A DNA stretch of 9,579 nucleotides from a virus. Its lineage: Duplodnaviria > Heunggongvirae > Uroviricota > Caudoviricetes. Location: IMG/VR virus record IMGVR_UViG_2690316286_000014; one strand, given 5' to 3'. The position numbers and the translations under genes were made by a program. The notes below the pieces were generated by a model, which did no database searches, was not told the DNA's origin, and worked only from the letters and a program-made list of their open reading frames with translations. The stretch's first letter is position 1. Each line of letters begins with the position of its first letter. Positions 1-9,579 of the stretch are shown here, piece after piece.

Positions 1-502
1 ATTTATAAACCTGCTGAAACTCGGTTTCGTCCATGTTCGCAAATGCGATAGATTTTGCCCTGCGCCCACGACTACCATCAGGATAAATATGCTCGGTGTA
101 AAATCCGGCCTGAATGGTTACCCACTCGCGGAAAGCCTCAAACGACTTTAGCAATGCTGTATCCCGGGTTCTGCGTGTCGCAACGGTATTCAGATATTGC
201 TCTGCGGCTTCGCTCAGAGCTGGCGTATGTTCCCGACCTACTGATTCGCGCAGGTACTCAACGAAGCCTGAAACCAGTTTTTGTTCGCTAGGCGTGATCG
301 CCCCTCCGACCGGAGTCCAGTAATCGAACCCCAGTTGCAGGAGTTTGAAAAAACGCTTGTGGAATGCGTAGTTACGAACGCGCTTAAAATCAGCGTGTAT
401 CCACTCACCTGTTTTGATTTGATGCAGAAAATCGCAACTCTCCGGCGTCGCCGGGAGAAGTAAACCAGAAGAAGTTTGTTTGACTAACTGTAAATGCACC
501 AC
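1..502 (-). CDS. Phage-associated hypothetical protein, N-terminal part only (gene continues past left edge)
   Basis: Minus-strand frame is open for about 179 codons from a stop at 539-541 to position 2; it is missing from the ORF track only because it has no stop inside the window. GTG starts at 502/499 are preceded by GAGGG. Translation begins VHLQLVKQTSSGLLLPATPESCDFLHQIKTGEWIHADFKRVRNYAFHKRFFKLLQLGFDYWTP... The + strand track ORFs 55..291, 114..323 and 281..463 lie antisense to it. Family not recognised with certainty; position relative to hok resembles ydfU in Qin, from memory. Confidence 0.6.
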   Translation of the reverse strand, partial: MVHLQLVKQTSSGLLLPATPESCDFLHQIKTGEWIHADFKRVRNYAFHKRFFKLLQLGFDYWTPVGGAITPSEQKLVSGFVEYLRESVGREHTPALSEAAEQYLNTVATRRTRDTALLKSFEAFREWVTIQAGFYTEHIYPDGSRGRRAKSIAFANMDETEFQQVYK

Positions 503-562
503 TACTACCCTCGTAATGGTGCGACAGGTACCAGGTGTTCAGACTGGCGTTGCCAGTATAAT

Positions 563-757
563 TTAGTCTTCTTTAATACAGAAGTGGCTTACAGAATCTG
601 CGTGCGATTCTTTGCTGATTAGAATTGCATCAGGAGGTAATGGCGTTACGATAAACTCCCCATTTTCGAGCGTTATCACTTCGTAGTGACCTGGTAAAGA
701 AAGCACAACAATCAATTCTTTAACGTTCATAACAAAAAGCCTGTGAACTTTTAACAC
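563..757 (-). CDS. Small hypothetical protein (64 aa from GTG at 757, or 55 aa from ATG at 730)
   Basis: Track ORF; stop TAA at 563-565. Internal ATG at 730 gives MNVKELIVVLSLPGHYEVITLENGEFIVTPLPPDAILISKESHADSVSHFCIKED. Only weak Shine-Dalgarno candidates at either start; no recognisable motif. Confidence 0.4.
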   Translation of the reverse strand: MLKVHRLFVMNVKELIVVLSLPGHYEVITLENGEFIVTPLPPDAILISKESHADSVSHFCIKED

Positions 758-858
758 TTCCCCTTAAGGGGTCCATCCCTCTTCTCCCTGCGCGCTACTT
801 AAGTGTTTTTGATTCTATTCCTGCGCATTCTGAAAGTTCAAACGCGTTGAAAATCGCA

Positions 859-882
859 ACAAAAAACCCGCCGAAGCGGGTT
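859..882 (-). terminator. Rho-independent terminator at the 3' end of the mok/hok transcript
   Basis: On the minus strand, a 7-bp stem AACCCGC/GCGGGTT (865-871 with 876-882) with loop TTCG is followed by TTTTTTG (forward A-run 861-866), about 70 nt after the hok stop codon. Confidence 0.6.
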
Positions 883-952
883 AAGTGCGGGTGCGTTGAG
901 GATGCCTGACACATCAGAGGTGGCGAGGGATTTCTCCCTCGCCTGGTCACTC

Positions 953-1108
953 TTACTCTCTAGATTCGTAGTCTACGAAGACAGCGACCTCCGTCTGGCC
1001 GGTTCGGATTCGTACCTCACAGAGGTCTTTCCTCGTTACCAGTGCCGTCGCTATGACGGTTAAACAGATGACGATCAGGGCGATTAACATCGCCTTTTGC
1101 TGCTTCAT
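953..1108 (-). CDS. hok: Hok/Gef-family membrane toxin (type I toxin, 51 aa)
   Basis: Translation MKQQKAMLIALIVICLTVIATALVTRKDLCEVRIRTGQTEVAVFVDYESRE has the Hok/Gef hallmarks: a single hydrophobic helix, the conserved TRKDLCEV and RTGQTEVAVF segments, and an acidic C-terminus. ATG at 1108 is preceded by AGGAG at a workable spacing. Confidence 0.85.
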   Translation of the reverse strand: MKQQKAMLIALIVICLTVIATALVTRKDLCEVRIRTGQTEVAVFVDYESRE

Positions 1109-1165
1109 AGCCTGCTTCTCCTTGCCTTTCGGCACGTAAGAGGCTAACCTACATGTGTTCAGCAT
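953..1165 (-). CDS. mok: Mok-like in-frame N-terminally extended reading frame enclosing hok (70 aa)
   Basis: ATG at 1165 is in frame with hok with no intervening stop (MLNTCRLASYVPKGKEKQA then the Hok sequence). This matches the in-frame MokC/HokC arrangement recalled for chromosomal hok loci. Confidence 0.5.
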   Translation of the reverse strand: MLNTCRLASYVPKGKEKQAMKQQKAMLIALIVICLTVIATALVTRKDLCEVRIRTGQTEVAVFVDYESRE

Positions 1166-1284
1166 GGATTGAGCCTCAGCTTAATGTTAAGCGTCTTGCA
1201 GGACGCGTAATGTTAACTGGGGCTTTTCTCTATCTGCCTTTTGGTGTTCATGCCTGAGGCAGATAGCCTCAAGCACCCATTATG

Positions 1285-1313
1285 ATTTTAACCAAAGTCT
1301 TTATATCTATAAA
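1285..1313 (-). promoter_or_regulatory. Putative sigma70 promoter for the mok/hok mRNA
   Basis: On the minus strand, -35 TTTATA (1313-1308) and -10 TAAAAT (1290-1285) are separated by 17 nt. The -10 overlaps the stop codon of the upstream peptidase gene; the predicted start near 1278 gives a leader of about 110 nt before the mok ATG. Confidence 0.3.
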
Positions 1314-2191
1314 GAGGCACAATATTACTCGATATATCATCATGTGTGCGCCTTATTCCAAACATTTTGGAAACAAAGCGTTCCCTCACTCCCGACATAT
1401 CCAGTATCTGCTTCCAAGAAGATATATCCAGCAATTCAACTGCACAGGAAAGTAAGCGAGGTTTTTCCTCAGGGATTAACTCATCCCCCATCTCTCCTTT
1501 AATCGTCCCTCTTTTATTTAGATGGATAAATCCCGTTCTCATTTGTTGTGGCGTAATCAGCCCCAAAACCGTAGCACGATAAATACACATGCGAAGACTG
1601 ATTTTCCATCGTTCTTTGAAATTAATTAGTGCATTCCAGTCAAGATGCGATCCTCGCATTTTAGGAAATTCATTAACGAACGAAACTCTAGGTACAAGGA
1701 ATGCGCTCGAAAAATAATCCGCATGATGTTCTGTAATTTTATCCCCTGTTATAATCCCTTCATGCAAAACAAGATGCCCCAGTTCATGACCGAGATCTGA
1801 GCGAAATCGACACACACTCTTTTTCGCGGAATTTCTAATTATCAATGGGCGTTTACTATTAATAGTAAACGCATCAATACGATCATCCACGCCAGATACA
1901 TGAGCAACAACAACCCCAATACTTTCCACGAAATTAACCATTGAAGATATCGGTCCCAGCCCCAACCCCCAATACCTTCTACAGGCCTCGGCAATTCTTT
2001 CAATATCTTCATCGGAGTTCAAAGGTAATCCGGACGTATCAGGAAAGTTCAATTCTGGAAGAACTATTTCTGTTTCCAAACACTTTACAAACTGCTCCAA
2101 AATTTCAGCTCGAGCCAGAATACTATTAGTTAAGGACTGCGTCCTTGATCTCTTGCTTCTGAAATGGCAGTTCTCGCTGTCTAATGGTGAT
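1288..2191 (-). CDS. ImmA/IrrE-family (Peptidase_M78 / COG2856-like) zinc metallopeptidase domain protein; C-terminal 301 codons visible, 5' part hidden by N-run
   Basis: 301 codons are open down to TAA at 1288-1290 in sequence of about 40 percent GC. HELGH sits at 1774-1788 (minus), followed by EHHADYFSSAFLVP, which fits the HEXXH...E..A..FA..LL.P pattern of ImmA/IrrE peptidases. The preceding DIERIAEACRRYWGLGLGPISSMVNFVESIGVVV also looks typical of that domain. About 130 residues C-terminal to the domain have no recognisable motif. Confidence 0.8.
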
Positions 2192-2687
2192 NNNNNNNNN
2201 NNNNNNNNNNNNNNNNNNNNNNNNNNNNNNNNNNNNNNNNNNNNNNNNNNNNNNNNNNNNNNNNNNNNNNNNNNNNNNNNNNNNNNNNNNNNNNNNNNNN
2301 NNNNNNNNNNNNNNNNNNNNNNNNNNNNNNNNNNNNNNNNNNNNNNNNNNNNNNNNNNNNNNNNNNNNNNNNNNNNNNNNNNNNNNNNNNNNNNNNNNNN
2401 NNNNNNNNNNNNNNNNNNNNNNNNNNNNNNNNNNNNNNNNNNNNNNNNNNNNNNNNNNNNNNNNNNNNNNNNNNNNNNNNNNNNNNNNNNNNNNNNNNNN
2501 NNNNNNNNNNNNNNNNNNNNNNNNNNNNNNNNNNNNNNNNNNNNNNNNNNNNNNNNNNNNNNNNNNNNNNNNNNNNNNNNNNNNNNNNNNNNNNNNNNNN
2601 NNNNNNNNNNNNNNNNNNNNNNNNNNNNNNNNNNNNNNNNNNNNNNNNNNNNNNNNNNNNNNNNNNNNNNNNNNNNNNNNNNNNNNN
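2192..2687. other. N-run (496 nt): gap or masked sequence inside the peptidase locus
   Basis: Uninterrupted n characters; length is not a multiple of 3. Confidence 1.
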
Positions 2688-3165
2688 CAAAACCTATCAG
2701 GGCTAAAAGCCACGTTGGAGGTTCGATATCTTCATCTTTTTTATTTGCAGATGGTAATTTTTCAGCCAGAACACGCCATGTAACATCATGTTCAAAATTA
2801 ACATCATCTTCAAAAAGAGATAACTGACGACACTCAACATCATTTTTACATAAGCGATGTTTCTTTTTTGGTGAATCCAGTTTATCGGTCACAAACTGTA
2901 ACGGCACCCTGTTCAGGGTAAACACAAAATTCAGAGGTGTTGAAAGAATCGCCACTCCTTTGAGTTTTTTATGATTTTTTACAAGAAAGTTTTTTATCCA
3001 TCCATAGGCCCTACATCCATTAATCCAGTTATCATCATACTCATGGCGATGGAACCATAATTCGCCAAGTACGTTAGCAAATTGCTGAAGAAGATTGATA
3101 ACAGATTTTTCATCCAAACAAGGATTGATTTCAAAACACGGTTGGAGATTCTGTTCAGACGGCAT
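2688..3165 (-). CDS. AT-rich hypothetical protein, N-terminal 159 codons visible; either the N-terminus of the peptidase protein or a separate upstream gene
   Basis: Open frame of 159 codons in sequence of roughly 30-35 percent GC, where random stops would be frequent. ATG at 3165 is preceded by GAGGG about 7 nt upstream. Translation MPSEQNLQPCFEINPCLDEKSVINLLQQFANVLGELWFHRHEYDDNWINGCRAYGW... has no HTH or other motif I can recognise. It shares a coordinate frame with 1288..2191 (the track's 639-aa ORF), but the N-run makes that uninformative. Confidence 0.6.
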
Positions 3166-3319
3166 AAGGTATCCCTCTCTCTTAAAACTCCGCTCATCTT
3201 TACGCAAAATTTTATTTTTGTAAACCTAATCTTTGGGGTATTTCACGAATTCGTCAACCAGTTGAACGAACTTTAACCACAATACATATTTATCTACATT
3301 GATATGAGTATCGCTAACA

Positions 3320-3550
3320 CTATTGTGGGCATTCAGCTAGTATTACCAAGCCTTCAGGTGCGCGAAGTTGTTCCACACAGTGCAGCAGCGCATCAGTCGC
3401 TTCCTTAAGCGTCACAGTGTCGCCATCACCCAGTCCTGCAATTTTTGCGTGCCTGACAAACGCCGCGCAAAGGTCGTTAAACGCCCCTGCCCGCACATCC
3501 GCCAGGAAAGCATTAGCAGCAGCCAATTCCTGGTAGTCAATCCTGCTCAC
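3320..3550 (-). CDS. Hypothetical protein (76 aa), translationally coupled to the upstream gene
   Basis: GTG at 3550-3548 overlaps the TGA stop of the upstream gene (GTGA) and is preceded by AGGAGG. Translation VSRIDYQELAAANAFLADVRAGAFNDLCAAFVRHAKIAGLGDGDTVTLKEATDALLHCVEQLRAPEGLVILAECPQ. It is the 3' part of track ORF 3320..3619. Confidence 0.55.
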   Translation of the reverse strand: MSRIDYQELAAANAFLADVRAGAFNDLCAAFVRHAKIAGLGDGDTVTLKEATDALLHCVEQLRAPEGLVILAECPQ

Positions 3551-3972
3551 TGCGCCGCCTCCTGAAAATTCCCCTGATAGAAAGCCAGTACACACTGCAT
3601 AACTTCGCTCTTCCTGCACTCGCGACAGATTATGTTCTGTCGTCTGTTGTAACGACGTATTTCGCCGTCTGGTAACGACCAGATAAGGTCCGGATCAACC
3701 ACAGATGTTTTTTTCTTCAGTTTTGCCCTTGATAGTTTTTTGCGGGCGTTTTGCCAGTCCTTACGAGCCTGTTCAGACGGGAATAACCCGTAGCCAGAGT
3801 TGTATACATCCCCACTGGCAACCAGCTCTCTGGCGAGAACGCTTATTAAATATCTTGTCGCCCCGGTTTTAGCTTCCAGTTGTCGTAACGTCTCGCGCCC
3901 ACTCTGGCGTACGAGTTCAACAACCTGCCCCTTAATTTTTTCCCGCTCTTCCTGTGTAAATACTTTTGCCAT
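3547..3972 (-). CDS. Small phage protein with a winged-helix-like N-terminal domain (141 aa); paralog of the gene at 5634..5889
   Basis: ATG at 3972 (MAKVFTQEEREKIKG...). The first 85 residues align with the MAKPFTPEQREELKT... protein at 5889, sharing ELVASGDVYNSGYG.FPSEQA.KDWQNARKKLSR. Codon usage is E. coli-like. Confidence 0.75.
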   Translation of the reverse strand: MAKVFTQEEREKIKGQVVELVRQSGRETLRQLEAKTGATRYLISVLARELVASGDVYNSGYGLFPSEQARKDWQNARKKLSRAKLKKKTSVVDPDLIWSLPDGEIRRYNRRQNIICRECRKSEVMQCVLAFYQGNFQEAAQ

Positions 3973-4734: not shown

Positions 4735-5350
4735 TTACTTCACAACTCCCGGAAAGCTGACATTTGAACGCCAGCTATCCCAGTTAAACGTCACCCACCG
4801 ACAACCGTTCATGGTCATGCGGTCCATAATNNNNNNNNNNNNNNNNNNNNNNNNNNNNNNNNNNNNNNNNNNNNNNNNNNNNNNNNNNNNNNNNNNNNNN
4901 NNNNNNNNNNNNNNNNNNNNNNNNNNNNNNNNNNNNNNNNNNNNNNNNNNNNNNNNNNNNNNNNNNNNNNNNNNNNNNNNNNNNNNNNNNNNNNNNNNNN
5001 NNNNNNNNNNNNNNNNNNNNNNNNNNNNNNNNNNNNNNNNNNNNNNNNNNNNNNNNNNNNNNNNNNNNNNNNNNNNNNNNNNNNNNNNNNNNNNNNNNNN
5101 NNNNNNNNNNNNNNNNNNNNNNNNNNNNNNNNNNNNNNNNNNNNNNNNNNNNNNNNNNNNNNNNNNNNNNNNNNNNNNNNNNNNNNNNNNNNNNNNNNNN
5201 NNNNNNNNNNNNNNNNNNNNNNNNNNNNNNNNNNNNNNNNNNNNNNNNNNNNNNNNNNNNNNNNNNNNNNNNNNNNNNNNNGGATTTGGCCTGGCTCAGC
5301 GCGTATTTTTGCCCGTCGTTCTGCACCTGATAATTCGCAAACGAGCATTT
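4735..5350 (-). CDS. Second, diverged DnaC-like helicase-loader copy (C-terminal 31 codons and a 23-codon internal island visible; remainder is N)
   Basis: 4735-4830 translates to IMDRMTMNGCRWVTFNWDSWRSNVSFPGVVK then stop, against VMDRMVMNGGRWVNFNWESWRPNVSHSRVVK at the end of the 5904..6650 protein. The island 5282-5350 translates to KCSFANYQVQNDGQKYALSQAKS against KCSFANYRAQNDGQRHALSQAKS. The two visible parts are not in the same coordinate frame across the 451-nt N-run, so the gene may be disrupted or the N-run length may not be exact. Confidence 0.5.
4831..5281. other. N-run (451 nt): gap or masked sequence
   Basis: Uninterrupted n characters. Confidence 1.
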
Positions 5351-5633
5351 NNNNNNNNNNNNNNNNNNNNNNNNNNNNNNNNNNNNNNNNNNNNNNNNNN
5401 NNNNNNNNNNNNNNNNNNNNNNNNNNNNNNNNNNNNNNNNNNNNNNNNNNNNNNNNNNNNNNNNNNNNNNNNNNNNNNNNNNNNNNNNNNNNNNNNNNNN
5501 NNNNNNNNNNNNNNNNNNNNNNNNNNNNNNNNNNNNNNNNNNNNNNNNNNNNNNNNNNNNNNNNNNNNNNNNNNNNNNNNNNNNNNNNNNNNNNNNNNNN
5601 NNNNNNNNNNNNNNNNNNNNNNNNNNNNNNNNN
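5351..5633. other. N-run (283 nt): gap or masked sequence
   Basis: Uninterrupted n characters. Confidence 1.
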
Positions 5634-5889
5634 TCACCTTTACCCTCGATAGCTTTTTGCGGGCGTTTTGCCAGTCTTTATGAGCCTGTTCAGAGGGAAA
5701 TACCCCGTAGCCAGAATTATATACATCACCACTTGCGACCAGTTCCATGCATAAGCGACCGACAGACGCACGACTGATACCTGTTTCATCTGACAACTGC
5801 CGAATCGTGACCCGACCGTCCTGATGCACGAGTTCCACAATTCGCGTCTTCAGTTCTTCCCGCTGTTCGGGAGTAAAAGGTTTCGCCAT
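5634..5889 (-). CDS. Small phage protein with a winged-helix-like domain; N-terminal 85 codons visible, 3' end in N-run
   Basis: ATG at 5889 is preceded by AGGAGG. Translation MAKPFTPEQREELKTRIVELVHQDGRVTIRQLSDETGISRASVGRLCMELVASGDVYNSGYGVFPSEQAHKDWQNARKKLSRVKV is paralogous to the 3547..3972 product. Confidence 0.7.
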
Positions 5890-5903
5890 AAATCCTCCTG
5901 AAA

Positions 5904-6650
5904 CTACTTAACAACCCTCGAATGGCTAACATTCGGACGCCAGCTCTCCCAGTTAAAATTCACCCAGCGCCCGCCGTTCATGACCATGCGATCCATCACC
6001 CGCTCGCCGAGAAGTGTATTCATCGCTGCATGGTTAATATTTGTCAGCATCCCCACACCGCGTAACGATGCCGTCCGGCGATCAACAATCTGGTTCAGTA
6101 CCACCTGCTCGTTTTTCGTATCCCGCTGCATGCCAATTTCATCCAGGACCAGCAGGTCAACACCACAAAGCTCCTGTAAAAATTTTTCACCGGATTTGCC
6201 GTTGTCGTAGCTCTCATGCAACACGCTCATGACATCGGACACGGTGACGATAATCACGCTACGCCCCTTCGCCATCAGCCGGTTGCCAATCGCGTCTGCA
6301 AGATGATTTTTTCCGGTGCCGGGCTTACCGCTGAACACAAAATTCGTACAGCCTGTCATCAGTTCGTCAGCTATGGATTTCGCCTGACTCAGTGCATGTC
6401 GCTGACCGTCGTTCTGCGCCCGGTAATTCGCAAACGAACACTTCCGGTGCAACGGCTGGATGCCGGAGCGGTTCAGGATTTTTTCCACCCGCAACTGACG
6501 ATTCAGGCGGTTGATCTCCTCGCAACGTTTCTGGCCTTCAGCAAGTTGCCACTCGCGCCACTCCGCTACCGTTCTGAATGGGGCGGTTACATGTGGCGGG
6601 GTCAGTCGGCGGATGCGTTCCAGAACGCCTCCTGTCGCAATATTTTTCAT
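5904..6650 (-). CDS. DnaC/IstB-like AAA+ helicase loader (prophage replication protein, 248 aa)
   Basis: Walker A GKPGTGKNHLA and Walker B LLVLDEIG are present. The protein is close to chromosomal DnaC along its whole length as I recall it (NRSGI.PLH..CSF.NYR, LTNSN-like segment, GERVMDRM). ATG at 6650. Confidence 0.9.
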   Translation of the reverse strand: MKNIATGGVLERIRRLTPPHVTAPFRTVAEWREWQLAEGQKRCEEINRLNRQLRVEKILNRSGIQPLHRKCSFANYRAQNDGQRHALSQAKSIADELMTGCTNFVFSGKPGTGKNHLADAIGNRLMAKGRSVIIVTVSDVMSVLHESYDNGKSGEKFLQELCGVDLLVLDEIGMQRDTKNEQVVLNQIVDRRTASLRGVGMLTNINHAAMNTLLGERVMDRMVMNGGRWVNFNWESWRPNVSHSRVVK

Positions 6651-6656
6651 GGTCTG

Positions 6657-7856
6657 TTACCCCCTGAAGCCTGGCGGGATCGCACTGTCCGGCAACGAGA
6701 CGGTGTTAACCTGTCGGAGCAACGTCTCAGGCCGAACACCTTTCGGCGCGAACAGACCCTGGTATTCATTGGCGATGCTGTGTCGAATCACCTGCTCAGG
6801 TGTAAAACCCTGCTGACGGAATTTTTCCAGTTCCCGTATCGCCCCGTTAGCGCCCTGCTCCGTTCGAATCGGTTTTCGCAATGCCTGCCTGAACTGGACC
6901 CACTCATGCCAGAGTGTTTCTGGCAACCAGTCGGGCAGATCAACTGACAACGGGTCAAATTTTTTCTGGCGAACAGCCCCACCGATAACCAGAATTCCCT
7001 GCTCGGTGTGCCTTGCGATATCACTGCGCCGCAAGACACATATCCCGGTTTCAACAGCACCGATTTTGAGCAGTGATTTCTGTCGCGGAGAATTTCGGTC
7101 AAGCTCGCTCCCACACCGGACACCGTTCCTGTCAGTCACGACGATATCAATCCGCCCTCCGCAACCGTCACCACGCTCTGGCACCGGATACTCACGACAG
7201 ACATCCAGGCCAGCAGCCTGCAACGCAACCACCGCAGAATTACAAAATTCCGCTGCAGTACCGCCAGATAATCTCCCCTCAAGCACTCCAGCCACAAAAT
7301 CCCGAAACTCCCTTCCGGAAGGGAAGGGTTTGGGATGGGTTAGATCTGTTTTTAGATCTTTATCTGTATCTTTATTAGTTGCCTTTGTGTTGGCATCATG
7401 TTCGAACATCACTCCAACATCTGTTTGAACACCTGTTAAATTTCTCTCTTGTTTTGTTTGAACATCTGCTTCCTTTCTGCTTCTTCTGGCCTGAACAGAT
7501 GCTTTTCCTGCGGCTGATTTTTTGGTTAATTTTTCTCTGACAGATGCCAGATCTTCCTCAATCCGAAGATGCATCCATTCGTCGCCGTTATCACAAAAAA
7601 ACTCCCGCAAGGATGGTTCAACATCAACCCATCGCTCGTTAGTCAGACGGGCAATTTTTGCCAACCTGTTTTTGGGTATTGGCTTTCCTGTTTGCCAGTA
7701 ATTGAACATCAGCAACAAATACGCGCCGTGCTCCTCTGCTGACAAATGCATGGTGTCAGCCAGGTAATCAGCTATGTACAGTTGCATGTATGGTAATGCG
7801 GCCATAATTGCCCCGTATGATGCTGCCCGGTTGCTTAGAATAAGCACAAACAGCAT
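6657..7856 (-). CDS. Phage replication initiation protein: DUF1376-like N-terminal domain plus DnaT-like C-terminal domain (YdaU-like, 399 aa; true start may be the internal ATG near 7805)
   Basis: N-terminus MAALPYMQLYIADYLADTMHLSAEEHGAYLLLMFNYWQTG is DUF1376-like. C-terminus ...VNTVSLPDSAIPPGFRG matches the DnaT C-terminus as recalled. A low-complexity K/T/D-rich linker lies between them. The stop is 4 nt upstream of the DnaC-like start, a dnaT-dnaC-like pairing. Confidence 0.85.
   Translation of the reverse strand: MLFVLILSNRAASYGAIMAALPYMQLYIADYLADTMHLSAEEHGAYLLLMFNYWQTGKPIPKNRLAKIARLTNERWVDVEPSLREFFCDNGDEWMHLRIEEDLASVREKLTKKSAAGKASVQARRSRKEADVQTKQERNLTGVQTDVGVMFEHDANTKATNKDTDKDLKTDLTHPKPFPSGREFRDFVAGVLEGRLSGGTAAEFCNSAVVALQAAGLDVCREYPVPERGDGCGGRIDIVVTDRNGVRCGSELDRNSPRQKSLLKIGAVETGICVLRRSDIARHTEQGILVIGGAVRQKKFDPLSVDLPDWLPETLWHEWVQFRQALRKPIRTEQGANGAIRELEKFRQQGFTPEQVIRHSIANEYQGLFAPKGVRPETLLRQVNTVSLPDSAIPPGFRG
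7340..7505. repeat. Iteron-like direct and inverted repeats with an adjacent AT-rich segment: candidate replication origin inside the initiator gene
   Basis: Near-identical 14-mers TGTTTGAACACCTG (7422-7435) and TGTTTGAACATCTG (7455-7468); related copies TGTTCGAACATC (7399-7410) and AACATCTGTT (7416-7425); inverted copy CCTGAACAGATGC (7489-7501). An AT-rich block at 7340-7378 contains TTAGATCT twice. Confidence 0.4.
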
Positions 7857-7868
7857 GGAAACTTTTGC

Positions 7869-8290
7869 TTAATGAACAATGACAGAATCGTCGGAAGACC
7901 CGCCGCCGCTGAAATGCGCTTTCCGGTAAACGGCCTGGACTGCATCATCATGCGCATCAATTGCCGTACTCAACGCTTCCTGCGCCGCCAGTAATGCACG
8001 GCGTTCCAGGGTATCGAAGATGCAGAGTCGGTGACGCAGCTCGCGCGGAAGAATTGCCAGAACCGCAGGGATCAGTTTCTGAATTTTTTCCCTTTGCGCT
8101 TTCGTTTCACCTTTCAACCAACGGTGATAGATATTCTGCTGATTGTTCCAGTCCTTGCCTGGTACAAGGGGCAATTCGCCGCCCCCCTGGCGCAGATATT
8201 CTTCAGTAATTGCGTTAGCGACCCACGCCTGCCCTTTTTCGGCTGCCAGGGCAACAGCACTGATTCGATGTGCTCATGCCTGATTTTCAT
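7869..8290 (-). CDS. YdaT/CII-like prophage regulator with an apparent frameshift near 8252-8256 (possible pseudogene or sequencing error)
   Basis: ATG at 8290-8288 overlaps the Cro-like stop (ATGA) and reads MKIRHEHIESVLL before drifting into rare codons and a stop. The coding-like frame with E. coli codon usage (...ALAAEKGQAWVANAITEEYLRQGGGELPLVPGKDWNNQQ...SDDSVIVH) is offset by one and has no standard start before the TTG at 8174 (track ORF 7869..8174). One extra base in the + strand run GCAACAG would join the two into about 140 aa, the size I recall for YdaT. Confidence 0.6.
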
Positions 8291-8529
8291 GAATCAACCG
8301 CTCCTATGCTGTTTTCGCTATGCTTACCGTCTGGGGGGAATACATCGTCAAGTCCACAATGAGCGCCAAGCCGATTAAGGGTAGAAACAATTTTTCTGCA
8401 CTCCTCTAGTCCAGGGGTACGAAAATTTGCTTCGTAATTTGCCAGTCGGCTTTGTATCCACCCTAACTGAACAGCAAGTTGTCTTTGAGACAGCCCAAGC
8501 TGTTTTCGATATGTTGAAATTTTGTTCAT
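8287..8529 (-). CDS. Cro-like XRE-family helix-turn-helix regulator (80 aa)
   Basis: ATG at 8529 with GGAGG 5 nt upstream. HTH segment LGLSQRQLAVQLGWIQSRLANYE. Divergent from the repressor gene. Confidence 0.85.
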   Translation of the reverse strand: MNKISTYRKQLGLSQRQLAVQLGWIQSRLANYEANFRTPGLEECRKIVSTLNRLGAHCGLDDVFPPDGKHSENSIGAVDS

Positions 8530-8625
8530 TGAAAACCTCCGATGACAATTTTAAACACACCTTGTGTTATATAGCCAAGCTGTTTTGTGTTTTATGTAAA
8601 TCACGATTCGTGATACAAGGATGCA
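8530..8625. promoter_or_regulatory. Divergent promoter/operator region of the immunity switch
   Basis: 96-bp intergenic region between divergent HTH genes. Contains the 7-1-7 inverted repeat ATCACGAtTCGTGAT (8600-8614), AACAC-N5-GTGTT (8554-8568) and TTGTGTT twice (8562-8568, 8585-8591). A minus-strand promoter candidate is -35 TTGGCT (8578-8573) with -10 TAAAAT (8553-8548). Confidence 0.55.
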
Positions 8626-9045
8626 ATGGAAAAAGAAAACGAAAAAATTGCCGCTAGTAGGCTCAATGACAAAATTGCAATGCGTCTTAAAGAGCGCAGG
8701 CAGAAGCTTGGTTTATCTCAAGGAAAACTTGCTGAAATCTGCGGATGGACGCAATCGCGTATAGGTAACTATGAGGCGGGCAGCAGAAATGTTGGAGTAC
8801 ATGACGCTGTCGTATTGGGAAAGGCACTTGGCATATCTCCTCCTGAGCTCCTCTTTGGAGAACAGGAATCTTCTGAATTGTGGTTAAATGAATCCCAACG
8901 AAAACTTCTTGAGTTGTTTAACCAGCTACCGGGCTCAGAACAACAACGAATGATTGAGCTATTTGAAGTCCGGCTAAAAGAAATCGATGAGTATGTAGAA
9001 AAATATTTGAGAGGCAGGATTAAAGATAATCCCCCACCGGAATAA
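8626..9045 (+). CDS. CI/DicA-like XRE-family HTH prophage repressor (139 aa), no LexA-like autocleavage domain
   Basis: HTH segment LGLSQGKLAEICGWTQSRIGNYEAG. The C-terminal LLELFNQLPGSEQQ resembles the DicA C-terminus as recalled. ATG at 8626 with AAGGA upstream; stop TAA at 9043-9045. Confidence 0.9.
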   Translation: MEKENEKIAASRLNDKIAMRLKERRQKLGLSQGKLAEICGWTQSRIGNYEAGSRNVGVHDAVVLGKALGISPPELLFGEQESSELWLNESQRKLLELFNQLPGSEQQRMIELFEVRLKEIDEYVEKYLRGRIKDNPPPE

Positions 9046-9170: not shown

Positions 9171-9350
9171 AAGCATATCCAAACAACGCCCCACCAGAGA
9201 ACGGCAGGACAATACCTCGAGTTATCCAGTCACTGAACAGGGCTAAGTAGCCAGCCTGAGGCATACGAACATGACGGCAGTTGTTGATTGATACAAAGCG
9301 CAGTAGATAAAACGTTCCGCCACCCGGCGTTAAGGGGAAATGGGGTCAAC

Positions 9351-9506
9351 ATGAATACTATCGATCTTGGCAACAACGAATCTCTGGTATGTGGCGTGTT
9401 TCCCAATCAAGACGGCACATTCACCGCCATGACGTATACCAAAAGCAAAACGTTTAAAACCGAAGCTGGCGCACGTCGTTGGTTGGGAAGACATTCAGGT
9501 GAGTAA
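9351..9506 (+). CDS. Small phage protein (51 aa), first gene downstream of the PL-like promoter
   Basis: ATG at 9351 (MNTIDLGNNESLVCGVFPNQDGTFTAMTYTKSKTFKTEAGARRWLGRHSGE); internal start within track ORF 9288..9506. Its position after the repressor resembles the small ydaF/ydaG-type genes of Rac-like prophages. No motif recognised. Confidence 0.45.
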   Translation: MNTIDLGNNESLVCGVFPNQDGTFTAMTYTKSKTFKTEAGARRWLGRHSGE

Positions 9507-9579
9507 AATGAACGAGACAGAATTAAAACACGTTATCGCTCTACTCCTAAATAGCTGCGCGGAATAGTAGATCACTTTG

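What the first reader, a model, noticed from the sequence alone, without database searches (positions are those of the whole stretch)
1..3207. Neighbourhood resembles the Qin ydfU-rem-hokD-relEB arrangement, with relBE replaced by the peptidase gene
As I recall it, in the E. coli K-12 Qin prophage hokD (relF) is the last gene of the relB-relE-hokD operon and is followed by rem and ydfU. Here the order on the same strand is large phage ORF, small ORF, hok, but the gene upstream of hok is the AT-rich ImmA/IrrE-domain gene rather than relBE, and hok has its own mok frame and promoter. That looks like a module swap at a conserved prophage hotspot, the kind of position where defence or addiction cargo tends to accumulate.
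Basis: partly seen in the sequence, partly recalled or inferred. Interest (0 to 1): 0.55.

Follow-up and report, generated by a model that had tools for sequence, protein, structure and literature searches.

The report
RosmerTA defence cassette beside prophage hok/sok
The stretch is an ordinary variable region of a lambda-like E. coli prophage in which a catalogued two-gene anti-phage toxin-antitoxin system (RosmerTA) sits directly upstream of an intact hok/sok killer locus; it is not a Qin ydfU-rem backbone with relBE swapped out.

Summary
The gene order is real: a DUF1367 gene cut by the contig end, a 55-aa ORF, hok/mok/sok, then an AT-rich ImmA/IrrE gene, all on the minus strand. The recalled Qin order ydfT-ydfU-rem-hokD-relE-relB is also correct.

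The Qin analogy fails in detail. Only hokD is shared. The flanking genes are not YdfU or Rem homologs.

The "peptidase gene" is RmrA, an HTH + M78 peptidase antitoxin. Together they form RosmerTA, a known anti-phage system. Their visible parts are 100% identical to RefSeq proteins found in 31 of 5,426 complete E. coli genomes.

The hok locus here is complete. The K-12 relBE-hokD state is the derived, truncated one.

The "variable cargo hotspot" idea holds. In about 90 related prophage loci, the positions on both sides of hok carry interchangeable cargo, including Kiwa, CBASS, AbiL, a kinase/phosphatase pair, other Rosmer pairs, Rem and YgiW-family genes. The window's RosmerTA is a rare occupant.

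All components are already known, so interest is low to moderate.

The parts
1..502 (-). 5' part (167 codons) of a DUF1367-family phage gene, cut by the contig end. It is the positional counterpart of ydfU but not its homolog.
   Evidence: Pfam DUF1367 at 5.2e-78. 92% nt identity to the annotated DUF1367 CDS in L001. No tblastn hit to K-12 YdfU.
563..730 (-). Small hypothetical ORF of 55 aa from its ATG (64 aa from the GTG at 757). It is not Rem.
   Evidence: No Pfam or PADLOC hit. Called as a 55-aa gene in the public record. Kept intact at 75% aa identity downstream of hok in L068, L070, L071 and L072. No similarity to K-12 Rem.
865..882 (-). Intrinsic-terminator-like hairpin followed by a T run. 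This is the probable 3' end of the hok mRNA and the left edge of the conserved hok module.
   Evidence: Homology to other hok loci begins at about 855-887 in most loci and at 759 in the Rem-type ones.
953..1165 (-). mok reading frame (70 codons) containing hok (953-1108, 51 aa), a HokD-type membrane toxin.
   Evidence: Pfam HOK_GEF at 1.5e-22. 92% aa identity to K-12 HokD.
1103..1278 (-). hok mRNA 5' leader with the sok antisense target (Rfam 'sok'). This is the right edge of the conserved hok module.
   Evidence: RF01794, 120.4 bits against a gathering score of 59, full model length. In every other hok locus the homology to the window stops at window 1278.
1285..1313 (-). Promoter-like site TTTATA-17-TAAAAT for hok. 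It lies in the last codons of rmrA, and the rmrA stop codon TAA is inside the -10 hexamer. It replaces the GTTTGC-17-TAGAAT promoter seen in most of the other loci compared.
   Evidence: Function is inferred, not shown.
1288..2191 (-). Visible 3' part of rmrA (residues 74-373 of 373): the M78/ImmA-IrrE Zn-peptidase domain with HELGH. The HTH N-terminus lies in the assembly gap.
   Evidence: 100% identical over 300 aa to WP_000418464.1. For that protein: Pfam HTH_3 5.8e-13 and Peptidase_M78 5.6e-13; PADLOC RmrA 5.7e-107.
2192..2687 (.). Run of 496 N. This is an assembly gap in the public contig. It hides the rmrT 3' end, the 14-nt rmrT/rmrA overlap and the rmrA HTH region.
   Evidence: Complete genomes have about 377 nt here, so the gap length is only an estimate.
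2688..3165 (-). Visible 5' part of rmrT (residues 1-159 of 216), the toxin partner of RosmerTA.
   Evidence: 100% identical over 159 aa to WP_001138877.1. PADLOC RmrT PDLC03929 at 1.4e-18. No Pfam domain.
3208..3319 (-). Intergenic stretch of 30% GC upstream of rmrT. Presumed promoter/operator region of the cassette, and its right edge.
   Evidence: Composition. No site passed the consensus scan, so the assignment is inference.
3320..3972 (-). Phage backbone to the right of the cassette: a small ORF/remnant (3320-3619) and a DUF977 gene (3547-3972). Homology to cassette-free prophages resumes at 3546.

Best explanation
Window 1-3972 is the segment between the replication genes and the Q antiterminator in the early-right region of a Rac/lambda-like E. 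coli prophage. It holds two independent accessory killer modules side by side.

**1. RosmerTA operon.** It consists of rmrT (216-aa toxin, no known domain) overlapping rmrA (373-aa antitoxin: XRE helix-turn-helix fused to an M78 ImmA/IrrE zinc peptidase). By analogy with tested RosmerTA systems, RmrA keeps RmrT in check in the lysogen, and infection by another phage releases the toxin to abort that infection.

**2. Complete hok/mok/sok type I toxin-antitoxin unit.** The short-lived Sok antisense RNA blocks mok/hok translation. Loss of transcription lets the Hok membrane toxin be made.

**Mosaic structure.** The RosmerTA cassette (39% GC, about 2 kb) abuts the hok transcription unit exactly at the first base of the hok mRNA. 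The usual hok promoter is therefore replaced by a look-alike formed by the end of rmrA. Both sides of hok are positions where lambdoid prophages carry interchangeable cargo, and this RosmerTA is one rare occupant.

**Shown:** gene identities, synteny, rarity, and the variability of the slot.
**Inferred:** anti-phage activity, toxin/antitoxin roles, and promoter use.
For: - **Identity of the pair.** PADLOC gives RmrA 5.7e-107 and RmrT 1.4e-18. Pfam gives HTH_3 plus Peptidase_M78. The visible parts are 100% identical to the RefSeq proteins.
- **Operon structure.** A two-gene operon with a 14-nt overlap is seen in complete E. coli genomes. The same overlap is kept in Proteus prophages, where RmrT is 43% identical, and in a non-phage metagenome contig next to PRTase-CE/NADAR genes.
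- **Published biology.** RosmerTA is a published defence system with a Zn-peptidase antitoxin and diverse toxins (10.1101/2022.05.11.491447; PMC10440598).
- **hok unit.** Pfam HOK_GEF, the mok frame, Rfam sok at 120 bits, and a terminator.
- **Prophage context.** Relatives show cI/cro/ydaT/ydaU/ydaV, then DUF1627, DUF977, RmrTA, hok, DUF1367, DUF1364, DUF1133 (Q), then lysis genes.
- **Rarity.** 31 of 5,426 genomes carry this rmrA, against 4,712 with the hok module. It is in 0 of 102 phage records and 0 of 80 IMG/VR loci.
- **Slot diversity upstream of hok.** Kiwa, CBASS cyclase + 2TM effector, AbiLi/ii, Ser/Thr kinase + PP2C, Hp1-3, sce7726/beta, QueH.
- **Slot diversity downstream of hok.** Rem, YgiW-family, other RmrTA pairs, Fic.
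- **Junction.** The break at hok +1 and the promoter replacement are shown.
Against: - The rmrT/rmrA junction and the rmrA HTH region of this particular genome lie in an assembly gap, so their intactness here is inferred from identical flanking sequence.
- No member of this RmrT subfamily (PDLC03929) was found to have been tested experimentally. No paper mentions these accessions.
- The hok promoter is only a 9-of-12 consensus match. The number of such matches in the region equals the shuffle expectation.
- The slot tabulation is a sample of about 90 loci with redundancy, not a census.
Confidence: 0.8

Rival explanations
1. One reading: a Qin-type ydfU-rem-hokD backbone in which the relBE operon upstream of hokD was exchanged for a single ImmA/IrrE peptidase gene.
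For: - The Qin order was recalled correctly.
- HokD is 92% identical, and 364 nt are shared at 91%.
- Both loci lie between the early genes and a Q-type antiterminator.
- ydfU-rem-hok arrangements with a full hok leader do exist in other prophages, for example L011 and L026-L028.
Against: - No YdfU, Rem, RelE or RelB similarity is found in the window.
- The left gene is DUF1367, which belongs to the alternative DUF1367-DUF1364 module. That module is in 25 of 72 sampled loci, against 47 with DUF968.
- K-12 lacks the hok leader that the window retains, so relBE-hokD is the derived state (PMC6379469).
- The 'gene' is a two-gene operon.
- In Proteus the same RmrTA pair sits directly upstream of DUF1367 with no hok.
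Confidence: 0.07
2. The HTH-peptidase protein is a prophage regulatory switch of the ImmR/ImmA or repressor/anti-repressor type that controls induction. On this view it is not a toxin-antitoxin defence module.
For: - ImmA/IrrE peptidases cleave HTH repressors in ICEBs1 and in some phages (summarised in PMC10440598).
- The protein carries both an HTH and an M78 domain.
Against: - The prophage already has a cI/cro-type immunity region 5-6 kb away, at 8287-9045.
- The gene matches the full length of RmrA models at 356 bits, not just the domains. It is always paired with an overlapping upstream RmrT gene.
- The pair also occurs outside phages, next to defence-type genes.
- It is present in under 1% of genomes that carry otherwise similar prophages. 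That frequency fits accessory cargo, not core regulation.
Confidence: 0.08
3. The juxtaposition is an assembly artefact. The contig is a scaffold with three N gaps and may join pieces of different prophages.
For: - The window is a whole 9,579-bp draft contig with gaps of 496, 451 and 283 N.
- Between the other two gaps there is an extra DUF977 copy and a second dnaC-like fragment. This suggests collapsed or chimeric scaffolding around 4735-5889.
Against: The arrangement DUF1367 - hok - rmrA - rmrT - DUF977 is colinear at 96-98% identity with complete, closed E. coli chromosomes. At least 30 records cover 75-79% of the 3,400-nt query, where about 85% is the maximum possible given the Ns.
Confidence: 0.03

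Closest known systems
RosmerTA (RmrT/RmrA) anti-phage toxin-antitoxin systems (Millman et al. 2022; Ernits et al. 2023)
   Same: - The antitoxin has an N-terminal XRE HTH and an ImmA/IrrE M78 Zn-peptidase with HExxH.
- An overlapping upstream gene encodes a toxin with no known domain.
- The gene order is toxin first.
- The system is carried by a prophage.
- There are strong PADLOC RmrA and RmrT matches.
   Different: - This RmrT subfamily (PDLC03929-like, only 5 clusters by word-based search) has no experimental test that I could find.
- It is soluble-looking, unlike the membrane-depolarising RmrT of Gordonia phage Kita (PMC10440598).
- Its mechanism is unknown.
hok/sok of plasmid R1 and chromosomal/prophage hokD (relF) of E. 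coli
   Same: - The Hok peptide, the overlapping mok frame, the leader/sok element and the terminator are all present.
- HokD is 92% identical to the K-12 protein.
   Different: - Unlike K-12 hokD, the leader is intact.
- Unlike most other prophage copies compared, the usual GTTTGC-17-TAGAAT promoter is replaced by sequence from the end of rmrA.
E. coli K-12 Qin relB-relE-hokD-rem-ydfU-ydfT segment
   Same: - It occupies the same map position in a lambdoid prophage, between the early/replication genes and Q.
- It has the same hokD lineage.
- In both, an unrelated TA-type module lies immediately upstream of hok on the same strand.
   Different: - The downstream genes are DUF1367 and a 55-aa ORF rather than DUF968/YdfU and Rem.
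- The upstream module is RosmerTA, not RelBE.
- In Qin the relBE insertion removed the hok leader, whereas here it is kept.
Defence hotspots of temperate phages and satellites (P2/P4 hotspots, Rousset et al. 2022; Vassallo et al. 2022) and lambdoid 'moron' loci
   Same: A fixed position between conserved phage genes holds mutually exclusive, AT-rich, horizontally exchanged defence cassettes.
   Different: - The anchors here are the hok transcription unit and the DUF977 and DUF1367/DUF968 genes of lambdoid prophages.
- I found no paper that describes this particular position. The library searched is incomplete.

Membership tests
RosmerTA | The antitoxin RmrA combines an XRE-type HTH with an M78 (ImmA/IrrE) Zn-peptidase domain carrying HExxH. 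| tested here: met
   Pfam HTH_3 5.8e-13 and Peptidase_M78 5.6e-13. PADLOC RmrA 5.7e-107 over residues 10-352. HELGH is visible in the window ORF. The window shows residues 74-373 only, at 100% identity, so the HTH part is inferred from the identical RefSeq protein.
RosmerTA | An adjacent, co-oriented partner gene encodes the toxin RmrT, and the two form one operon. | tested here: met
   The 216-aa gene overlaps rmrA by 14 nt in complete genomes. PADLOC RmrT at 1.4e-18. The pair and its overlap are conserved in Proteus and in a metagenome contig. In the window itself the junction is hidden by the N gap.
RosmerTA | RmrT is toxic, RmrA neutralises it, and the pair protects against phage. | not testable with these tools
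   This needs cloning, toxicity/neutralisation assays and phage challenge. No paper mentions these accessions.
hok/sok type I toxin-antitoxin | A Hok/Gef-family small membrane toxin. | tested here: met
   Pfam HOK_GEF at 1.5e-22. 92% identical to K-12 HokD.
hok/sok type I toxin-antitoxin | An overlapping mok frame and a structured 5' leader carrying the sok antisense region. | tested here: met
   70-codon ORF at 953-1165. Rfam RF01794 matched over its full length at 120.4 bits, against a gathering score of 59.
hok/sok type I toxin-antitoxin | Its own constitutive hok promoter and a sok promoter. | tested here: inconclusive
   The usual promoter is replaced. A 9-of-12 look-alike ends 7 nt before +1. 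No sok promoter passed the scan. There are no transcript data.
Qin-type ydfU-rem-hokD-relEB arrangement | YdfU (DUF968) and Rem homologs lie downstream of hokD. | tested here: not met
   tblastn best E-values are 0.36 for YdfU and 1.3 for Rem. The left gene is DUF1367. The small ORF has no Rem similarity.
Qin-type ydfU-rem-hokD-relEB arrangement | A hokD ortholog at the same prophage map position, between the replication genes and Q. | tested here: met
   364 nt at 91% identity. Synteny with the Q-type gene (DUF1133) is seen in relatives L001 and L002.
Prophage defence hotspot | Conserved flanks with mutually exclusive, diverse cargo that includes recognised defence systems. | tested here: met
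   Drawn from about 90 loci. Upstream of hok, 51 loci have small phage ORFs and 23 have larger cargo: Kiwa, CBASS, AbiL, STK+PP2C, Hp1-3, sce7726/beta and others. Downstream there are Rem, YgiW-family, RmrTA-like and others. Enrichment relative to other prophage positions was not tested.

The most novel reading that the evidence does not exclude
The hok transcription unit may be a fixed landmark of lambdoid prophages with a previously undescribed defence hotspot on each side. Two observations point that way. Homology breaks exactly at hok +1. The rmrA stop codon is embedded in a rebuilt hok -10 element. Together they could mean that hok expression is transcriptionally coupled to the neighbouring defence operon, by read-through or a shared promoter region. 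Hok would then serve as a second, membrane-targeting effector or back-up for RosmerTA and for the other cassettes that land there.
Probability: 0.1. Interest if true: 0.55.

Novelty: already known. Interest (0 to 1): 0.25.

Why it matters
- **Annotation.** An unannotated 'HTH domain protein + hypothetical protein' pair found in STEC and other E. coli prophages can now be read as a RosmerTA defence system beside hok/sok.
- **Correction of the tempting reading.** relBE is the late-comer in K-12, not the ancestral occupant of the slot.
- **A lead for defence-system discovery.** The positions flanking hok in lambdoid prophages are a convenient place to look for new defence cassettes. Several occupants seen here have no assigned system: an NA37 + TM pair, a TM + 310-aa pair, and a SMEK_N set.

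None of this changes current understanding of either system.

Tried and rejected
- **Contig look-up.** Looking up the DUF977 protein from its TTG start found nothing. The ATG-start version identified the contig.
- **Extra 119 nt in the gap.** I considered that the roughly 119 extra nt in the window's N run, relative to complete genomes, might be a real insertion. I rejected this because the Ns are an assembly gap in the public record.
- **rmrTA promoter.** None in 3208-3319 passed the consensus scan.
- **Literature.** Searches for a described hok-adjacent lambdoid defence hotspot, and for the two RefSeq accessions, found nothing specific.
- **Not done.** I did not run a full census of all ~10,700 hok places. 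Only about 90 loci were sampled.


Full report
**What is in the sequence**

The window is the whole 9,579-bp draft contig CXCS01000143.1 of assembly GCA_001260675.1. It has three runs of N (2192-2687, 4831-5281, 5351-5633). These are in the public record, so they are assembly gaps of estimated size.

All genes of the finding lie on the minus strand. From right to left:
- a DUF977 gene (3547-3972) and a small ORF/remnant (3320-3619);
- an intergenic stretch of 30% GC (3208-3319);
- an AT-rich block (1279-3207, 39% GC against 49-55% in the flanks);
- hok inside a 70-codon mok frame (953-1165);
- a terminator-like hairpin (865-882);
- a small ORF (563-730);
- the first 167 codons of a larger gene that runs off the contig end (1-502).

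**The 'peptidase gene' is half of a two-gene operon**

The ORF lister reports one 639-aa ORF at 1288-3207. That ORF only exists because it reads through the 496-N gap.

Complete E. coli chromosomes are colinear with window 1-3400 at 96-98% identity. In them the same stretch holds two genes that overlap by 14 nt:
- WP_001138877.1, 216 aa, annotated as hypothetical;
- WP_000418464.1, 373 aa, annotated as 'helix-turn-helix domain-containing'.

The parts visible in the window are 100% identical to these proteins: 159 aa of the first and 300 aa of the second.
- The 373-aa protein has Pfam HTH_3 (5.8e-13) and Peptidase_M78/IrrE (5.6e-13). It matches the PADLOC RmrA models over its full length (5.7e-107, 356 bits).
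- The 216-aa protein has no Pfam domain but matches a PADLOC RmrT model (1.4e-18).

The pair is therefore RosmerTA. This is a published anti-phage toxin-antitoxin system whose antitoxin carries a Zn-peptidase and whose toxins are diverse (10.1101/2022.05.11.491447; PMC10440598).

The pair is a real unit. It keeps the same 14-nt overlap in Proteus prophages, where RmrT is 43% identical, and in a non-phage metagenome contig, where it lies next to PRTase-CE and NADAR genes.

**The hok locus is complete**

- Hok matches Pfam HOK_GEF (1.5e-22) and is 92% identical to K-12 HokD.
- Rfam's 'sok' model covers the hok mRNA leader and the sok target. It matches 1103-1278 over its full length at 120 bits, against a gathering score of 59.
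- In every other hok locus compared, homology to the window stops at base 1278. That is the first base of the leader model, GGGUGCUUGAGG.
- In most of the other loci a promoter precedes that base: GTTTGC, 17 nt, TAGAAT, 6 nt.
- In the window and its close relatives this is replaced by TTTATA, 17 nt, TAAAAT, 6 nt. It lies at the same distance, is made of the last codons of rmrA, and has the rmrA stop codon inside the -10 hexamer.

For the promoter it is plausible but unproven.

**The Qin comparison**

Qin has ydfT-ydfU-rem-hokD-relE-relB on one strand. But when the six K-12 proteins are searched against the window, only HokD matches.
- The large left gene is DUF1367 (5e-78). YdfU is DUF968.
- The small ORF has no similarity to Rem. 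It is a different 55-aa gene that recurs downstream of hok in a few other prophages.
- DNA homology with Qin is confined to window 759-1122. It ends 14 nt upstream of the hok start codon. K-12 lacks the leader, and relE ends about 70 nt before hokD.

This matches the published view that relBE integrated into an ancestral 70-codon mok/hokD locus (PMC6379469). The K-12 state is therefore the derived one. 'relBE replaced by the peptidase gene' has the history backwards. The relBE-hokD junction is nevertheless common, in 1,166 of 5,426 genomes.

**Who occupies the slot**

Counts for the window's cassette against the hok module:

| Collection | hok module | window's rmrA / RmrTA |
|---|---|---|
| 5,426 complete E. 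coli genomes | 4,712 genomes, 10,762 places | 31 genomes, all ≥99% identical |
| GenBank phage records | 102 records | 0 |
| IMG/VR loci sampled (best 80 by Hok similarity) | 80 loci | 0 |

In at least 30 of the E. coli records the cassette is in the same arrangement as in the window.

I annotated eight E. coli loci and the 80 IMG/VR loci. They share a common map:

replication genes - DUF1627/DUF977 - small nin-like ORFs - [cargo] - hok - [cargo] - (DUF1367-DUF1364, or a small ORF-DUF968/YdfU-RusA) - Q antiterminator.

- **Downstream module.** DUF968 in 47 loci and DUF1367 in 25. The window is of the second type and Qin of the first.
- **Directly downstream of hok.** Rem (21), a YgiW-family gene (20), a 70-aa ORF (9), other RmrT/RmrA pairs (3, plus L007 and L008), a Fic gene, or nothing.
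- **Directly upstream of hok, small ORFs.** 51 loci have only small phage ORFs such as DUF551.
- **Directly upstream of hok, larger cargo.** 23 loci. PADLOC or Pfam identifies:
  - Kiwa KwaA/KwaB;
  - a CBASS cyclase with a 2TM effector;
  - AbiLi/AbiLii;
  - a Ser/Thr kinase with a PP2C phosphatase;
  - a three-gene Hp1-3 set;
  - sce7726 plus a beta-family protein;
  - an ImmA-only gene;
  - QueH (four loci);
  - several unassigned pairs.

The sample is redundant and is not a census.

In Proteus prophages the homologous RmrTA sits directly upstream of DUF1367 with no hok between them. The slot is therefore defined by the phage backbone rather than by hok alone.

**How it most likely works**

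*Shown:* the identity and arrangement of the parts.

*Inferred from the families:*
- In the lysogen, RmrA binds its own promoter through the HTH and neutralises RmrT.
- Infection by another phage upsets this balance, and RmrT stops the cell before the invader completes its cycle.
- hok/sok acts independently. When transcription is shut off, the unstable Sok decays and Hok depolarises the membrane. The R1 locus is known to exclude T4 (Pecota and Wood 1996, cited in PMC11364771).

**Rivals**

- The specific Qin-swap model fails its own test, as shown above.
- A regulatory ImmR/ImmA-type induction switch is unlikely for four reasons:
  - the prophage has its own cI/cro region at 8287-9045;
  - the protein matches RmrA over its full length and is always paired with RmrT;
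  - the pair also occurs outside phages;
  - it is present in under 1% of genomes.
- An assembly artefact is excluded for 1-3972 by colinearity with closed genomes. The region 4735-5889 of the same contig does look doubtful (see the notes).

**Verdict**

Every component is already catalogued. I score interest at 0.25.

The most novel reading still open is that the hok unit marks a two-sided lambdoid defence hotspot, with hok expression coupled to its neighbour. It rests only on the break at +1 and the rebuilt promoter, and I give it a probability of about 0.1.

Noticed in passing
window 4735-5889: Between and around the other two N gaps there is a second DUF977 copy (5634-5889, cut by a gap). 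There are also fragments of a second dnaC/ydaV-like gene: a 69-nt island at 5282-5350 and a 3' end at 4735-4830. The order becomes dnaC - DUF977 - dnaC' - DUF1627 - DUF977, where relatives have dnaC - DUF1627 - DUF977. This is either a tandem duplication or a scaffold that mixes two resident prophages.
   Followed up: partly
window 1278/1279; L004-L011: Homology between the window and other hok loci breaks exactly at the first base of the hok mRNA. The substitute -10 hexamer (TAAAAT) sits at the same distance as the usual TAGAAT and contains the rmrA stop codon.
   Followed up: partly
L007:2578-4334, L008:2601-4335, L045, L081, L083: Other RmrT/RmrA pairs sit on the opposite (downstream) side of hok, between hok and Rem/DUF968. 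The L008 RmrT falls in the same PADLOC RmrT family (PDLC03929, 4.6e-25) as the window's. Part of its rmrA is 71% identical in DNA to window 1507-1965.
   Followed up: partly
L093-L095 (Proteus prophages), 5001-7391: A homologous RmrT (43% identity)-RmrA pair lies directly upstream of DUF1367 with no hok. The RmrT protein is listed in 365 blocks of the collection, so it is common in Proteus.
   Followed up: no
L024, L025, L085, L089, L090 (upstream of hok): A QueH (epoxyqueuosine reductase, Pfam 1.1e-65) gene is carried in the slot upstream of hok in five phage loci. This is an unusual metabolic or tRNA-modification gene for this position.
   Followed up: no
L032:2844-5198; L019:4092-5574; L075:2683-5269: Unassigned cargo sets upstream of hok with no PADLOC system call. 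They are candidates for uncharacterised defence cassettes:
- L032: an NA37 nucleoid-associated-like protein plus a 410-aa membrane protein.
- L019: a 184-aa membrane protein plus a 310-aa protein.
- L075: a SMEK_N-domain protein plus a membrane protein plus a methyltransferase-like protein.
   Followed up: no
window 9310-9510: The DUF1391 gene (9351-9506, plus strand) and its surroundings are 87% identical to the ydfA region of K-12 Qin. This is the only other Qin-like DNA in the window. The immunity region (cI-like 8626-9045, cro-like 8287-8529, YdaT-like 7869-8174) is of the Rac/ydaS-ydaT type.
   Followed up: partly
GenBank PP818812.1 (H86): A record named Actinobacillus phage vB_Apl-pPE4 carries a hok module 95% identical to the E. 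coli one. This is an odd host attribution that may reflect an E. coli-derived phage or contamination.
   Followed up: no
L034, L035, L033, L090: Some IMG/VR loci depart from the usual hok layout. L034 has no recognisable hok leader. In L035 the leader lies about 1.1 kb from hok, which is probably an insertion. L033 and L090 have two leader copies.
   Followed up: no
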